A stretch of 64,000 nt of DNA from a virus. Shown here in pieces: positions 45,582-50,195 of the stretch. The stretch is from positions 1 to 64,000 of IMG/VR virus record IMGVR_UViG_3300042691_019380. The stretch is one strand, 5' to 3'. The notes below the pieces were generated by a model. It made no database searches, was not told the origin of the DNA, and was given only the letters and a program-made list of their open reading frames with translations. Each line of letters starts with the position of its first letter. The first letter of the stretch is position 1. The translations under genes and the position numbers were made by a program.

Positions 45582-46871
45582 CTAGAGGTTCGCCTCGACC
45601 TTGCTCCGGGTGTCCTTATCGAGTCCCTTCCAGACGCAGGCGTCGAGGACGGCATCGACCGGCCAGCCTGCCCGCAGGAGAGCGACGCCGTTGATGTTCG
45701 CACGGGGCGAGACGATCACACGGACTCCCTTGCCCAACTTGGCGACGGCGTTGCGGATGGCGACGACCTTCCGCACGTACTCCGCCGCACGATCCTCGGC
45801 GACGGCCTTCTCGCCGTCGGTCTTGACCGGGTGGAGTTTGATGCCCTTGGGGGCCGGAGCCTCCGCGAACAACTCGACCGACAGGCCGCACGCCGCCGCC
45901 TCGATCCGGGGATCGTACGGCCAGTCGAGCAGGACGAACCGATCGAGCGTGGCTGCGTCGATCTGCTGCCGCCCCACGTACTGCCGATCAGCACCCTGGC
46001 CGATCGTATTCGCTCCCGCGATCAGCACGAAATCGGCGTGCTTGGCGACCACTGCGTCGGGGAACGAAGCGTGCCCGTTCGCGAGCAGTTGATTGATCAC
46101 CACCAGCACGGCCGGATTGGCCGCGTCGACCTCGTCGAGCAAGAACACGCCGCCGTGTTCGTAGGCGTCTCGGAGTTGCGTCCGGACGACCTTGCCGTTG
46201 GCATCGTGGTAGCCGAGTAGGCTCGACTCCGACGTCTGCGGCCCCACGCTCTTGGCGTAGAACGGCAGGCCGAGCGAGTCCGCGACGGCATGGGCCGACG
46301 AGGTCTTGCCCGAACCGGCGGGGCCGACCAGCCAGAGGTTCCGGCGAGCCGCGACGGCGGCGAGCAGGGCCTCAAACTGGACATGCTGGACGCCGACGTC
46401 GTGGGTCACGCCCTCGACGGTCACGACCTCGATCCGCTGCGGCACCAGGGCCGCGATCCGCTCGTCGACGATCTTGGCGACCTCGTCGCGGTCGACCCCG
46501 GCGTCGGCCGAGCCGCCCTGGACGATGCCCGTGTCGCGGATCGCCTCGGCGATGATGGTCGCCAAGTCCCGTCCGCCGCCGGTGTAGTGGTCGCGAACGG
46601 CGTCGGCGATCTCCGAGTCGCTGTTGACGTGGGTCGCCGAATCGTTACCGTGCCCAGACTTCTCGGCACCGGAAGCCCACAGGCTCAGGCCGCGAGAAGT
46701 CTTGACGACCCGCTCGCCGTTGGGGCCGACGAGGTGGAAGAGGCGGGTCTGGCGACCCTTCTCGGTCTCGCGGGTCTCGACCGACTCGATCGTGAACTCG
46801 CGACCGTCGGCGACGGTGATCACGGCTCCGACCTTGTACGACTGCCACGAATTGTTGGTGACGTTGTTCAC
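45582..46871 (-). CDS. MoxR/CbbQ-type AAA+ ATPase
   Basis: GPAGSGKT, LLDEVD, AGANT.G.G...YVGR..ID.ATLDRF, SPR. Confidence 0.9.
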   Translation of the reverse strand: MNNVTNNSWQSYKVGAVITVADGREFTIESVETRETEKGRQTRLFHLVGPNGERVVKTSRGLSLWASGAEKSGHGNDSATHVNSDSEIADAVRDHYTGGGRDLATIIAEAIRDTGIVQGGSADAGVDRDEVAKIVDERIAALVPQRIEVVTVEGVTHDVGVQHVQFEALLAAVAARRNLWLVGPAGSGKTSSAHAVADSLGLPFYAKSVGPQTSESSLLGYHDANGKVVRTQLRDAYEHGGVFLLDEVDAANPAVLVVINQLLANGHASFPDAVVAKHADFVLIAGANTIGQGADRQYVGRQQIDAATLDRFVLLDWPYDPRIEAAACGLSVELFAEAPAPKGIKLHPVKTDGEKAVAEDRAAEYVRKVVAIRNAVAKLGKGVRVIVSPRANINGVALLRAGWPVDAVLDACVWKGLDKDTRSKVEANL

Positions 46872-46933
46872 TGGGCTTCTCCTTGAAAATCGACTGGGCT
46901 TTACGACGGGTGACGTCCACTCGTCATGCCAGG

Positions 46934-46987
46934 AGTATAGGGGACGCCAGGGGTAGTGTCAAACGGATTTTCCCGTTTATGACACAA
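46934..46987 (-). promoter_or_regulatory. Early promoter P5 (TTGACA-N17-TATACT) plus box
   Basis: -10 46934-46939, -35 46957-46962, box 46978-46987. Confidence 0.88.
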
Positions 46988-46992
46988 CTCAA

Positions 46993-47027
46993 AAAACCCC
47001 TGTTTTAGGCCGAAAAACAGGGGTTTT
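46993..47027. terminator. Bidirectional hairpin, inverted copy of 39092-39126
   Basis: Its reverse complement differs from 39092-39126 at one base; overlaps the Ro60 stop. Confidence 0.7.
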
Positions 47028-48327
47028 GGGCCTCGGACTCGACGATGTACCGGATCACGTTTTCGGAAAATCCGTCCACGTGGACCCATCCGTCCCGGTA
47101 GCCGACGCCGTTCTTGTACGGCGCGACGTTGACCATATATGCACGCTCGGCCTTCGGACGCACGACACGATCGTGCGACTGCTCGTCGGTGATCACGATC
47201 AGGCGATCGTGATCGAATCGCTCGACGTATCGAATCGCTTCGCCGAGACGAGTGCCGCCGTGGTGTTGCGATGTCTCGATCGCTTCAACGCCAGACAGTC
47301 CTCGACGAGGCGGCACTTCCACTACTTCGTCTGAGAACGTGAAGGCACGAAGGTCATCGCAGTTCACGATCGCAGCGAGAGACGCAGCAGCGTCGATTCT
47401 TGTCAAGTCTGATCGACCAGAGAGTGGCGTGTGCATCGAGCCAGAGACGTCGACCAGCACGATTGTCTTGCCAGCGAGAGTCGGCAACTCGTGAATCGAC
47501 GCGAGCATCGCGATGTTGAGCGTCGGCTCAAGAGACGGCGCGGCTTTGGCGGCAGCAACGTAACGAAACGGCAGCACGCGATCCGCGCCGAGCCTGCCCA
47601 GGATCGCGTTCTTGATCAGCGACGTCTCGACGCCAGCCTCGATCATGTTTCGCAGATTGCGAAGCAAGGCGAGATAGCCGATCCGTTGCTCGCGAATCAG
47701 TCTCTCGAACGTGGCCTTCTTGTCGGCTCCCGCAGAGAGAGCGACCTCCCACGTATCGGGAGACGCGAGCGTACCCTCGACGAGAGCCCGCCACGTTGCC
47801 GCTTGCTCGGGTGTGTCGGGCTTGGCGTGACACAGGAACAGGACGTCGCGAAGTTTCACGGCGTCAGGCTTGTTGTATTTGGCGAGTTGGTGCGCATTGA
47901 ACTTCTTGAATGCCTGGGCCAAGCCCTTCTTCATCGGGTTCGAGAGCGGCTTCTTTCCGTCGGCCCAGTAGATCGCGACAAGTTCCGCGAGTTCGTCGGC
48001 ACGCTGAATCGTGTCGGCGATCGCCTGCGAGACAAGTTTGCCCGTGCCGTGCTTGATAAGAGCCTTGAGCAGAAGCAGCGGCACGTGACGAAGATGGAAC
48101 TTCGATCGAGCCTCGACGGCGAGGGCAGCGATCTCGGACGGCTCGACCTTTTCGCACAGGGCGAGGATTCGATCCGCGACGTCGACGCCGTCTTCGTAGT
48201 GCGTCGACTCCCAGAGCAAGCATGTCAGGACGCTGCGTCGCAGTTCCTGGCTGGGGGTGATGCGAACAGCAGGGCCACCCTCGTGGGTGACCACGGCGGG
48301 CGAGACTTGGGCAGTGTTGATTCGCAC
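47005..48327 (-). CDS. rsr: Ro60/TROVE-domain RNA-binding protein with vWA C-terminus
   Basis: THEG, LRH.PL, QRADEL, LAKY, LRDVLFL.H.KP, TWEV.LS, ALLRNLRN, LPFR; DVSGSM MIDAS; ITDEQ; G.SE. Confidence 0.93.
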   Translation of the reverse strand: MRINTAQVSPAVVTHEGGPAVRITPSQELRRSVLTCLLWESTHYEDGVDVADRILALCEKVEPSEIAALAVEARSKFHLRHVPLLLLKALIKHGTGKLVSQAIADTIQRADELAELVAIYWADGKKPLSNPMKKGLAQAFKKFNAHQLAKYNKPDAVKLRDVLFLCHAKPDTPEQAATWRALVEGTLASPDTWEVALSAGADKKATFERLIREQRIGYLALLRNLRNMIEAGVETSLIKNAILGRLGADRVLPFRYVAAAKAAPSLEPTLNIAMLASIHELPTLAGKTIVLVDVSGSMHTPLSGRSDLTRIDAAASLAAIVNCDDLRAFTFSDEVVEVPPRRGLSGVEAIETSQHHGGTRLGEAIRYVERFDHDRLIVITDEQSHDRVVRPKAERAYMVNVAPYKNGVGYRDGWVHVDGFSENVIRYIVESEAQNPCFSA

Positions 48328-48357
48328 GACCGTGGCTCCTGACTGAAGAAAAAAGGA

Positions 48358-48431
48358 TGCTGGCGAGAACAGCGAGACCGGGGAATCAAACGCCTTAGTG
48401 TGAAGTATCCGGCCTCTGCACTACGCCAGCA
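48358..48431 (-). ncRNA. Candidate Y-RNA-like structured RNA 1
   Basis: TGCTGGCG-TAG-stem-TACTTC-loop-stem-TGTTCT-CGCCAGCA; about 30 nt upstream of Ro60. Confidence 0.7.
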
Positions 48432-48442
48432 GTACGAAAAGA

Positions 48443-48511
48443 GTCGCGAGAACAAACGGACACGGCACGGGTTCTTTTCAAGAGAAGTAGCCGTGGCCTT
48501 CGCTACGCGAC
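48443..48511 (-). ncRNA. Candidate Y-RNA-like structured RNA 2
   Basis: GTCGCG-TAG-stem-TACTTC-loop-stem-TGTTCT-CGCGAC; 5' end 7 nt from a predicted -10. Confidence 0.7.
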
Positions 48512-48518
48512 GAGAGTC

Positions 48519-48556
48519 AGTGTACGGATACACCAACGGCGAGCAAGGAGTTTTTT
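48519..48556 (-). promoter_or_regulatory. Class-II promoter TTGCTC-N16-TACACT for the RNA/Ro60 unit
   Basis: AAAAAACTCC-TTG and GTRTCCGTACACT shared with 50202-50240. Confidence 0.65.
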
Positions 48557-48942
48557 CAGGCCACTCCAGCCGGAAGCGGCTGCCAGTGCGTTGGCTGCGG
48601 CTTGAACGTCGCAAGCGAGTCTGGCTTGACGAACGTGCCGTCTTCGTCGCACGCGCCGACCGAGACAGCGTCTCCACGGCAGACCAGCACGGTCTCGTCG
48701 ACGTCTGGAAGCCGAGACTTGATCGACACCCACGGAGACTTGGGCTTGGGCTTGGGCTTGGGCTTGGGCTTACCCGTGCTGGCGAGTTTCACCCTGACGT
48801 CGAGAGTCGCGAGCCCGTCGATCTCCTGCGTCACCGACACGTCTGTCACGTACGCCCGGACGATGTCGGAGAACATTCCTCCGTAACCGTACTGGGACGA
48901 GACGTACTCGACGATCGCGTCGGCTAGGGCTTCGTGCGTCAT
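48556..48942 (-). CDS. DUF551-domain protein with (KP)n linker
   Basis: WVSIKSRLPD...THWQPLP; (CTTGGG)5.5 at 48739-48771. Confidence 0.75.
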   Translation of the reverse strand: MTHEALADAIVEYVSSQYGYGGMFSDIVRAYVTDVSVTQEIDGLATLDVRVKLASTGKPKPKPKPKPKSPWVSIKSRLPDVDETVLVCRGDAVSVGACDEDGTFVKPDSLATFKPQPTHWQPLPAGVA

Positions 48943-49922
48943 GCGATCTCAGCCTCGAACCTCGCCGCTGCGTTCATCACATCAGTGACCCTCTGCGACC
49001 GCAGGCTCGACTCTCGCCACGCTCGCCGAGCCGCCAGCGAGAGGGCCGCGCCGAGGGCCACCGTCCGGCGGAGTCGAGTCATCTCTGACAGGACAACCGC
49101 CAGGAAGTGTGGGTCCGCCGAGACGCAGTCCTCACGGCCGCACGGGTCGCAGTCCGCGACCGCAGCAGCCAGGGACCGCATCACATCGTCAGACGAGTGC
49201 GAGCCGAGAGCCTCCTGCCCAGCCATGCACTCACGCAGTCGCTCGATCTCCTGGGCCGCGTCCTCGGCGATGCTGTTGCAGAACAGGCAGATCGCATCTT
49301 TACGAAGACGGTCAACGATATCGACGCTCATTCGTTGTCCTCCAGCCACTTCGCGGCCTTCACGAGCCACGCTGCGTAACGACGCAGTTCACCGGCCGAA
49401 GTCCTGCCGTCGTAGAGATCGAAAGACGTGTCAACAATCTTCTCGCCGTCGACGATCGCGCATTCGGCACGGCTCGTCGCAGTTAAAGTCTTCCGTGGCT
49501 TCGCAGTCTTCATCTTCGCCATACTCCGAAGGAAGGTAGAACGACCAGTGGACGTTGTCAGCGTATGCAGACAAGTCGCACTCTTGATTCAGGATCGAGA
49601 ACGGGAGTCGACGCGAGCCTTCGTCGATACGCTCTGGCTCGTTATTGTCGTATTCACGCTCCGTCTCCATGTAGACGAAGACTTCGCCATCAAGTTTCTC
49701 AACGATCAGCCTCATCCTCGCACCTCCAGAGTGACCTTCGGCAGGACGATTCGCGACAGAATCCAAACGCAAACGAGAATGCAGAGCGACTCCATCGAGC
49801 CGAGCCGCGTCAGGCCGAAGACAGGCGAGACGCCGTAGTTCCACGACACAGTAAATAAGATCGACGCCGCCATGAGAACGATTGCCCAAAGCCAGATGGC
49901 GATGGCTGCGTGAGTGACAGTC

Positions 49923-50195
49923 TCAACGGCCGATTTGCTGTCCACGGCGAACTTCCTCCTTGAGTCTCTCTACGTAAACCGCCGCGTCGAGCAACTCCTC
50001 TTGAAGATGCTGAAGCCAACCGGCGAGGTCGATGTCTGTACGGTCTGTCGTGGTGCCGTACTTTCTGTATCCAGACTCAGAGCGAGCCAGAAGAGCCGCG
50101 CGAACCCGCATCACGTTCGTGTCGGGAAGATCGCACTCGTCGCGAGGCTGCGGAGCAGGCTCGGGCGGCGAGAAGAGTTTTTTCAGCAGCGACAT
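49923..50195 (-). CDS. Small all-alpha NTP-pyrophosphatase-like phage protein
   Basis: R...G..KYGTT.DR.D....WL.HLQEELLD.AVY. Confidence 0.6.
   Translation of the reverse strand: MSLLKKLFSPPEPAPQPRDECDLPDTNVMRVRAALLARSESGYRKYGTTTDRTDIDLAGWLQHLQEELLDAAVYVERLKEEVRRGQQIGR

What the first reader, a model, noticed from the sequence alone, without database searches (positions are those of the whole stretch)
47005..48556. Phage Ro60 unit with its own promoter and two tandem structured RNAs with invariant boxes and variable loops
Seen on the minus strand: two 69-74-nt elements share GCG-TAG, TACTTC and TGTTCT-CGC. Their outer and inner stems differ in sequence yet still pair, which looks like covariation, and their ~17-nt loops differ (ACACTAAGGCGTTTGAT and TCTTGAAAAGAACCCGT). 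A TTGCTC-N16-TACACT promoter places +1 at about the first base of element 2, and Ro60 starts 30 nt after element 1. Established: Ro60/Rsr binds Y RNAs, which are often encoded beside it and tether effectors such as PNPase; bacterial YrlA RNAs carry a tRNA-like domain. These elements are shorter and lack a T-arm (no GTTCGA). Inference: they are minimal modular Y-like RNAs with a constant Ro-binding scaffold and a swappable loop acting as decoy, adaptor or guide.
Basis: partly seen in the sequence, partly recalled or inferred. Interest (0 to 1): 0.88.

Follow-up and report, generated by a model that had tools for sequence, protein, structure and literature searches.

The report
Two short phage Y RNAs beside Ro60
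A phage gene for the ring-shaped RNA-binding protein Ro60 is preceded by two small hairpin RNA genes that belong to a large family of Ro60-partner ("Y") RNAs. This is a known kind of system, here in a stripped-down form with no tRNA-like part.

Summary
On the minus strand, two hairpins (48511-48443 and 48430-48359) lie between a weak but conserved promoter and a TROVE+vWA (Ro60) gene (48327-47005), which ends in a terminator.

They are not a one-off. Covariance models built from such hairpins found 265 further copies in 131 phage and bacterial loci that encode homologues of this protein. All copies are on the gene's strand and 259 are upstream. Covariation is strong: 94% of cells paired against 69% in shuffles, and 16 of 16 pairs show double changes.

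The shared handle is an outer stem with a bulged U, a GG(C/U)G(A/U)AG box, an inner stem, an almost invariant UUACUUC, and UGUUCC on the 3' side. In most relatives the same handle also carries a tRNA-like module, and those copies hit Rfam YrlA below threshold. The handle box is a relaxed form of the published Rsr motif GNCGAAN0-1G.

The complete 92.9-kb phage has no YrlA or tRNA match anywhere. It therefore uses only short, YrlB/Yrn2-like Y RNAs, which is a minority arrangement.

A phage Ro60 with two upstream Y-like RNAs is already published (Thermus phage phiLo, 2025; Chen et al. 2014). The guide or decoy idea has no support.

The scan's first readers noted the same arrangement in a close relative. 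Interest is moderate.

The parts
48519..48546 (-). Candidate promoter: TTGCTC, 16-nt spacer, TACACT. The -10 box ends 7 nt before element 2.
   Evidence: Read from the sequence. It matches the consensus at 7 of 12 positions and was not reported by the scanner. The -10 box and the spacing are kept in L004, L005 and L014 (TTGCGT, 16 nt, TACAAT). Consensus-like promoters are about 12-fold enriched just upstream of the first element across loci.
48443..48511 (-). Element 2, the distal short Y RNA. It has a 6-bp outer stem, a bulged U, an AG:CU step, a CGAAG box, an inner stem, UACUUC, and a loop of the common pyrimidine/GAAA type.
   Evidence: Fold z-score -3.7. R1 60.3 bits and R2 69.3 bits. A U-A to C-G compensatory change occurs in L005. 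The loop type recurs in L046, L049, L078 and L088.
48359..48430 (-). Element 1, the short Y RNA nearest the gene. It has a 7-bp outer stem, a bulged U, an AG:CU step, a UGCAG box, an 8-bp inner stem, UACUUC, and an unusual 20-nt loop.
   Evidence: Fold z-score -5.2. R1 66.5 bits and R2 46.5 bits. It occupies the slot that the tRNA-like long form fills in relatives. The corresponding element in L014 matches the first ~45 nt of a long form in L012 and then closes directly.
48336..48340 (-). Ribosome-binding site AGGAG, 8 nt before the GTG start codon.
   Evidence: Read from the sequence.
47005..48327 (-). Ro60/Rsr homologue of 440 aa: a TROVE ring plus a vWA domain with an intact DxSxS metal site.
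   Evidence: Pfam TROVE 8.8e-14 and VWA_2 1e-5. PDB 9KOP/9L5Y phiRo60, E 8.7e-31 over residues 11-429. D293, S295 and S297 are invariant in A3. There are 516 relatives in IMG/VR and more than 557 in species genomes.
46993..47027 (-). Terminator hairpin (14-bp stem) with the Ro60 stop codon in its loop, followed by a U-rich tail.
   Evidence: Fold -21.5 kcal/mol, z-score -3.0. The next gene has its own strong promoter at 46962-46934.

Best explanation
The two elements are genes for short, hairpin-type Y RNAs, the small RNA partners of the phage's own Ro60 protein.

Proposed mechanism. The unit is transcribed from the weak conserved promoter, or by read-through from the upstream gene, as one precursor: RNA 2, RNA 1, Ro60 mRNA. 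The precursor ends at the terminator that overlaps the Ro60 stop codon. Host RNases release the two hairpins. Each hairpin binds Ro60 through its conserved handle: the outer stem with a bulged U, the two G:C (here A:U and G:C) pairs, and the internal loop formed by GG(C/U)G(A/U)AG and (C)UUGUUCC. This is the counterpart of the bulged helix and GNCGAA motif of known Y RNAs. The apical part begins with the near-invariant pyrimidine tract UUACUUC. It stays exposed and tethers a host effector, most likely an exoribonuclease such as PNPase, giving a Ro60/Y RNA/nuclease particle during infection.

What is shown. The RNAs are a covarying structured family. They are strictly linked to this protein family in position and strand. 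The same handle carries tRNA-like modules in relatives. This phage has no tRNA-like version.

What is inferred. Expression and processing, binding to Ro60, the identity of the tethered effector, and the benefit to the phage.
For: Protein. Pfam TROVE and vWA. The closest solved structure is a phage Ro60 that was shown to bind two upstream Y-like RNAs (PMC12135203).

RNA family in phages. Model R1, built from 12 short elements, found 168 hits in 505 kb. All were on the TROVE strand and nearly all within about 1 kb upstream.

RNA family in bacteria. Model R2, built from phage loci and the window's two elements, found 119 hits in 62 of 68 bacterial loci that took no part in building it.

Covariation. 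On that test set 93.8% of cells pair against 69% in shuffles. All 16 pairs show double changes. The score is 0.667 against 0.19 in shuffles and 0.07-0.13 for slid partners. One search gave similar figures.

Conserved positions. U28, C30 and C33 of UUACUUC are invariant in 150 sequences. The bulged position is U in 141 and C in 9.

Link to YrlA. Long members of the same arrays hit Rfam YrlA at 25-56 bits. They contain T- and D-arm sequence.

Trans action. Arrays lie downstream of the gene in L008, L010 and L083.

Close relatives. Stems and boxes are kept while changes fall in the loops.

Published precedent. Y RNAs upstream of rsr are processed from one precursor. [quoted passage not shown]
Against: There is no expression, processing or binding evidence for this phage or for any member of this clade. 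No public RNA run holds the region.

Neither element reaches any Rfam family, even at E<=10.

The published motif GNCGAAN0-1G is only approximated. Element 2 has AGCGAAG. Element 1 has AGUGCAG.

The promoter is weak (7 of 12). The PNPase link is by analogy only, and the host is unknown.
Confidence: 0.8

Rival explanations
1. The hairpins act in cis as a structured 5' leader of the Ro60 mRNA. For example, they could be autoregulatory binding sites through which Ro60 controls its own translation or mRNA stability, rather than being released as separate RNAs.
For: They lie between the candidate promoter and the ribosome-binding site. Element 1 ends 31 nt before the start codon. In 259 of 265 cases the elements are upstream on the same strand.
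Against: Some homologous loci carry the same elements downstream of the gene (L008, L010, L083). Arrays can lie more than 1 kb away: 28 hits do so. Arrays hold up to 5 CM-detected copies, and about 9 by eye in CcrColossus, many with tRNA-like modules. This is typical of released RNAs. In M. smegmatis, upstream Y RNAs are processed from a precursor and bound in trans (PMC4201824). The two roles are not mutually exclusive.
Confidence: 0.08
2. The hairpins are decaying remnants of a YrlA-type array that lost its tRNA-like modules and no longer functions. On this view the phage Ro60 uses host RNAs or none.
For: The element nearest the gene in L014 looks like a long form with its tRNA-like core deleted. 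Element 1 has an atypical loop and the lower model score, 46.5 bits. Arrays with only short forms are a minority.
Against: Both hairpins keep every handle feature and full pairing. Relatives with 96%, 86% and 66% identical Ro60 keep two short elements. Substitutions are concentrated in loops, and one stem change is compensatory. Short forms are the commonest class in the family, about 85 of 150. They usually accompany long forms, so they are a functional type in their own right.
Confidence: 0.05
3. The variable loops act by base pairing as guides, or as decoys of a specific tRNA anticodon arm that divert host nucleases.
For: The loops differ between the two elements. The loop of element 2 can be drawn as a 4-bp stem with the 7-nt loop CUUGAAA. 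In the family, pairing of the UUC of the box with a downstream GAA or GAG is commoner than in shuffled loops: 74 of 120 against 35-48 of 120.
Against: No complementary site for either loop exists in the 64-kb window within 3 mismatches. Apical loop lengths range from 4 to 12 nt, and only 15 of 120 are 7 nt. There is no constant anticodon-like triplet. The semi-conserved pyrimidine/GAAA pattern across distant phages suggests a protein-binding surface rather than diversified guides.
Confidence: 0.05
4. The hairpins are transcription terminators or attenuators, or generic intergenic repeats.
For: Both are G+C-rich hairpins, and element 1 is followed by a U-rich run.
Against: The U-run follows a 4-nt spacer and is not conserved in L005 or in other loci. 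The terminator scan did not report them. Conserved internal loops and an invariant loop box tied to a single gene family are not terminator features. The genome holds only these two copies.
Confidence: 0.02

Closest known systems
Thermus phage phiLo phiRo60 with Yrl1 and Yrl2 (PMC12135203; PDB 9KOP, 9L5Y)
   Same: Both are phage-encoded Ro60 homologues with two Y RNA-like hairpins directly upstream on the same strand. It is the best solved relative of the window protein, E 8.7e-31. In that system the RNAs bind the protein and form a ternary complex with host PNPase. Its RNAs were recognised by a CGAA motif in a stem-bulge-stem fold, and element 2 here also has CGAA.
   Different: The proteins are only distantly related. 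Whether the phiLo RNAs share the UUACUUC and UGUUCC boxes was not tested, because I had no reference sequence. Nothing has been measured for the present clade.
Short hairpin Y RNAs of bacteria: Salmonella YrlB, M. smegmatis YrlB, D. radiodurans Yrn2 (Chen et al. 2014, PMC4201824)
   Same: They are second Y RNAs encoded next to rsr. [quoted passage not shown] In M. smegmatis and D. radiodurans they are co-transcribed with other Y RNAs and processed.
   Different: Those RNAs were found by immunoprecipitation and had no detectable homologues outside close relatives. The present type is conserved across hundreds of phage and prophage loci and shares its handle with the long forms. In this phage no tRNA-like partner RNA accompanies them.
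YrlA (Rfam RF02553), the tRNA-mimicking bacterial Y RNA
   Same: The layout is the same: terminal stem, internal loop with a GNCGAA-like box, second stem, then a module. The 3' strand (C)UUGU is similar. Long members of the same arrays hit RF02553 at 25-56 bits.
   Different: The window elements lack the T-arm, D-arm and acceptor-like stem. They give no RF02553 hit even at E<=10. No member of this clade reached the Rfam gathering score in the 20 loci tested. The UUACUUC box is not part of the Rfam consensus.
Metazoan Y RNAs (Rfam RF00019)
   Same: The design is modular: 5' and 3' ends pair into a Ro-binding helix with a bulged pyrimidine, and a pyrimidine-rich loop carries other partners.
   Different: There is no sequence similarity and no Rfam hit. 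Transcription and biology differ.

Membership tests
Ro60/Rsr protein (TROVE + vWA) | TROVE (HEAT-repeat ring) domain | tested here: met
   PF05731, 51.9 bits against a cut-off of 23. Alignment to phiRo60 covers residues 11-429.
Ro60/Rsr protein (TROVE + vWA) | C-terminal vWA domain with a DxSxS metal site | tested here: met
   VWA_2 E 1e-5, 26.5 bits, just under the curated cut-off of 27. D293, S295 and S297 are invariant in 10 homologues.
Bacterial Y RNA, general (Chen et al. 2014 criteria) | Encoded within 4 kb of the Ro60 gene and on the same strand | tested here: met
   The elements lie 31 and 115 nt upstream on the same strand. The same holds for 265 of 265 family members.
Bacterial Y RNA, general (Chen et al. 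2014 criteria) | GNCGAAN0-1G motif near the 5' end | tested here: inconclusive
   Element 2 has AGCGAAG, where the first G is replaced by A paired with U. Element 1 has AGUGCAG. The family consensus GG(C/U)G(A/U)AG includes exact matches.
Bacterial Y RNA, general (Chen et al. 2014 criteria) | 5' and 3' ends pair into a long stem with a bulge or internal loop | tested here: met
   Shown by the folds and by covariation of both helices.
Bacterial Y RNA, general (Chen et al. 2014 criteria) | Bound by Ro60 and dependent on it for accumulation | not testable with these tools
   No RNA data are available. This needs co-immunoprecipitation, a gel-shift assay or a knockout.
YrlA (Rfam RF02553) | tRNA-like domain (T-arm, D-arm, acceptor-like stem) | tested here: not met
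   No T-loop sequence is present. ARAGORN finds nothing in the window. RF00005 and RF02553 find nothing in the whole genome.
YrlA (Rfam RF02553) | Score at or above the Rfam gathering threshold of 69 bits | tested here: not met
   There is no hit at E<=10.
Short hairpin Y RNAs (YrlB/Yrn2 type) | [quoted passage not shown] | tested here: met
   Each is a 69-72-nt hairpin. The loops start with UACUUC, followed by UCUU in element 2 and ACAC in element 1.
Short hairpin Y RNAs (YrlB/Yrn2 type) | Sequence homology to Salmonella or Mycobacterium YrlB, or to Deinococcus Yrn2 | not tested
   No reference sequences were available through the tools. The literature says these RNAs have no detectable distant homologues (PMC4201824).
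UUACUUC-type phage/prophage Y RNA family (defined here, models R1 and R2) | Outer stem, bulged U, two G:C-type pairs, 5' box, inner stem, UUACUUC, 3' UGUUCC | tested here: met
   R2 gives 69.3 and 46.5 bits. All boxes are present. The window's elements were among the training sequences, so their match is partly by construction. The family itself was validated on independent bacterial loci.

The most novel reading that the evidence does not exclude
The UUACUUC-handle RNAs would be a large branch of Y RNAs, found in hundreds of phage and prophage loci, that appears in no RNA catalogue. In this branch the short hairpin is the commonest form. Lineages such as this phage have dropped the tRNA-like domain altogether. 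tRNA mimicry would then be dispensable for phage Ro60 function, contrary to the 2014 generalisation that every Ro60 system keeps one tRNA-like Y RNA. The invariant pyrimidine box would be the true docking site for the tethered host nuclease.
Probability: 0.35. Interest if true: 0.55.

Novelty: new variant of a known kind. Interest (0 to 1): 0.4.

Why it matters
Ro60/Y RNA particles are RNA-surveillance machines found from bacteria to humans, and Ro60 is a major lupus and Sjogren autoantigen. Short bacterial Y RNAs have so far been found only by immunoprecipitation and could not be traced by sequence.

This locus belongs to a family in which short and long forms share one recognisable handle. 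That allows a covariance model that finds them in hundreds of phages and prophages, and shows which nucleotides are constrained.

A complete phage genome that keeps Ro60 with only two minimal hairpins is a compact natural system. It could be used to ask what the handle and the pyrimidine box bind, and whether the tRNA-like domain is needed.

The concept itself, a phage Ro60 with upstream Y-like RNAs that recruits host PNPase, is already published.

Tried and rejected
- Rfam, window region. A scan of 46000-50000 at E<=10 gave only chance-level hits to unrelated families and nothing over the elements.
- Rfam, whole genome. YrlA (RF02553) and tRNA (RF00005) gave no match. ARAGORN found no tRNA in the window.
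- blastn. The 221-nt RNA region against 50,697 phage records gave only a chance 32-nt match. The family is visible only with structure-aware models.
- Public sequencing runs. No RNA holder is listed, so expression and RNA ends could not be examined.
- Guide idea. The reverse complements of both loops match only themselves in the window within 3 mismatches. The remaining 29 kb of the genome and the unknown host were not searched.
- Anticodon-arm mimic idea. A small apical stem is commoner than in shuffles, but loop lengths range from 4 to 12 nt and only 15 of 120 are 7 nt. Rejected as a family feature.
- Link to the downstream AAA+ (MoxR-like) gene. Homologues are adjacent only in the three closest relatives among 168 loci, so it is not part of the unit.
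- Count of loci with only short forms. Model hits alone gave 32 of 70. A crude T-loop search showed that most of these have T-loop sequence nearby. Only 6 of the 28 checked have none, so short-only arrays are a minority.
- Structure prediction of the protein was not run, because sequence homology to a solved phage Ro60 was already clear.

Full report
**What is there**

On the minus strand, the 228-nt gap between a DUF551 gene (stop codon at 48556) and a 440-aa ORF (48327-47005) holds several features in order:
- a candidate promoter, TTGCTC, 16 nt, TACACT (48546-48519);
- element 2 (48511-48443);
- a 12-nt linker;
- element 1 (48430-48359);
- an AGGAG ribosome-binding site;
- a GTG start codon.

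The ORF carries Pfam TROVE and vWA domains. Its best relative among solved structures is the Ro60 of Thermus phage phiLo, E 8.7e-31 over residues 11-429. The DxSxS metal site is invariant in ten homologues. A 14-bp hairpin with the stop codon in its loop ends the unit. The next gene, an AAA+ ATPase, has its own near-consensus promoter. The window is part of a complete 92,855-bp phage genome with terminal repeats.

Both elements fold into long imperfect hairpins, with z-scores of -3.7 and -5.2. They share GCGUAG, UACUUC and UGUUCUCGC, while their stems differ but still pair.

Phages with 96% and 86% identical Ro60 (L004, L005) keep both elements. Changes cluster in the loops and the linker, and the outer stem of element 2 shows a U-A to C-G compensatory change.

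**What it is**

Homologues of the protein occur in many phages: Xanthomonas, Brevundimonas, Caulobacter CcrColossus, Ralstonia, Microcystis, Rhizobium and crAss-like phages. Beside them lie arrays of elements with the same boxes. Some are short hairpins and some carry T-arm and D-arm sequence. The long ones hit Rfam YrlA at 25-56 bits, below the 69-bit threshold. GenBank sometimes annotates them as tRNA genes.

I built a covariance model from 12 short elements (R1) and searched the window plus 72 phage loci retrieved through the protein. It gave 168 hits, all on the strand of the Ro60 gene and nearly all within about 1 kb upstream.

A second model (R2) was built from 67 short elements, 65 from phage loci and the window's two. 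It was tested on 68 bacterial-genome loci that took no part in building it. It gave 119 hits in 62 of these loci, again all on the gene's strand.

Taken together, 259 of 265 elements are upstream, with a median gap of 250 nt. Loci carry 1-5 elements each. In the phage's own genome only the two elements match.

**Structure**

On the independent set, 93.8% of cells form standard pairs against 69% in shuffles. All 16 pairs show double changes. The covariation score is 0.667, against 0.19 in shuffles and 0.07-0.13 when partners are slid. One search gave similar values on the phage set. A MAFFT alignment made without any model shows the same outer-stem covariation.

The consensus handle consists of:
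- a variable 5-6-bp outer stem;
- a bulged U (141 of 150; C in the other 9);
- two G:C pairs, which are A:U and G:C in the window, a covarying alternative;
- the box (C/U)G-N-(A/U)AG;
- an inner stem with conserved ends;
- UUACUUC, in which three positions are invariant in 150 sequences;
- on the 3' side, (C)UUGUUCC.

Read together with the GG before it, the box that follows is a relaxed form of GNCGAAN0-1G. Chen et al. 2014 proposed that motif as the Rsr-binding site (PMC4201824). Element 2 has AGCGAAG and element 1 has AGUGCAG.

**Short and long forms**

About 85 of 150 family members are 57-80 nt, and about 30 are 121-146 nt with tRNA-like sequence. The commonest array is a short element followed by a long one next to the gene.

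In the window, both slots hold short forms. The complete genome has no YrlA and no tRNA match.

L012 has 66% identical Ro60 and still carries a long form next to the gene. In L014, also 66% identical, the element in that slot matches the first ~45 nt of the L012 long form and then closes its stem directly. This suggests that the proximal short form arose by loss of the tRNA-like core.

Arrays with only short forms are a minority. Of the 28 loci where the model found only short forms and that I checked, just 6 lack any T-loop sequence nearby.

**Loops**

The loops are not arbitrary. Many short loops follow UACUUC with pyrimidines and then (U)GAAA. The loop of element 2 has near-copies in phages with 55-60% identical Ro60. 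The loop of element 1 is seen only in its closest relatives.

I found no complementary target in the window. I also found no consistent anticodon-arm geometry.

**Promoter**

The promoter call is weak by consensus, at 7 of 12. However, its -10 box and spacing recur at the same place in L004, L005 and L014. Across loci, consensus-like promoters are about 12-fold enriched just upstream of the first element, 16% against 1.4%. In those cases the -10 box usually ends 4-8 nt before the element. Read-through from the upstream gene is not excluded.

**How it most likely works**

By homology of the protein and by the layout of the RNA, these are Y RNAs. They are probably cut out of a precursor and bound by Ro60 through the handle, and the pyrimidine-rich apical part probably holds a host effector.

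The precedents are direct. In M. smegmatis, upstream Y RNAs are processed from one precursor. [quoted passage not shown] Phage phiLo Ro60 binds two upstream Y-like RNAs and assembles with host PNPase (PMC12135203).

Binding, processing and the effector are inferred here, not shown. No RNA run holds the locus.

**Novelty**

The kind of system is known. Three things appear new:
- a recognisable and widely conserved short-form family that shares its handle with long forms;
- its absence from Rfam;
- a complete phage that has only short forms.

Other first-stage notes of this scan describe the same two-hairpin arrangement in a close relative. Follow-up reports describe other phage Ro60-like genes with 'handle' RNAs. 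I did not rely on these notes as evidence.

Noticed in passing
window 45582-46871 (-), promoter 46962-46934: An AAA+ (AAA_5/MoxR-like) ATPase gene lies directly downstream of the Ro60 terminator and has its own near-consensus promoter, TTGACA, 17 nt, TATACT. Homologues are adjacent to the Ro60 gene only in the three closest relatives (L004, L005, L014) among 168 loci, so the pairing is lineage-specific.
   Followed up: partly
L001 2331-2398; L002 2266-2340; L003 1628-1695: GenBank records of Xanthomonas phage 10KY502B, Brevundimonas phage Kikimora and Caulobacter phage CcrColossus annotate 'tRNA-Thr', 'tRNA-Ser' and 'tRNA-Gln' upstream of the TROVE gene. These overlap or abut sub-threshold Rfam YrlA matches and lie inside the Y RNA arrays (in L001 and L003 clearly within handle-bearing elements), so they are probably tRNA-like modules of Y RNAs and not real tRNA genes.
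   Followed up: partly
L002 5841-6186: Brevundimonas phage Kikimora carries a permuted tmRNA (Rfam RF04321, 57.7 bits, above threshold) about 2 kb downstream of its Ro60 gene.
   Followed up: no
L140 3941-6225: A contig of a Dehalococcoidia metagenome-assembled genome has more than 20 tandem tRNA genes directly downstream of its Ro60 homologue, which suggests a phage or prophage region.
   Followed up: no
window 48741-48769 (-): The DUF551 protein encoded upstream contains a run of (Lys-Pro) repeats, encoded by repeated AAGCCC.
   Followed up: no
Genome-contig loci L090-L169: The compact, roughly 430-aa Ro60 clade is very common in Caulobacterales, Hyphomicrobiales and Terriglobales genomes, with more than 557 species-level hits. 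It comes with the same RNA arrays there. Whether these are prophages or chromosomal genes was not examined.
   Followed up: no
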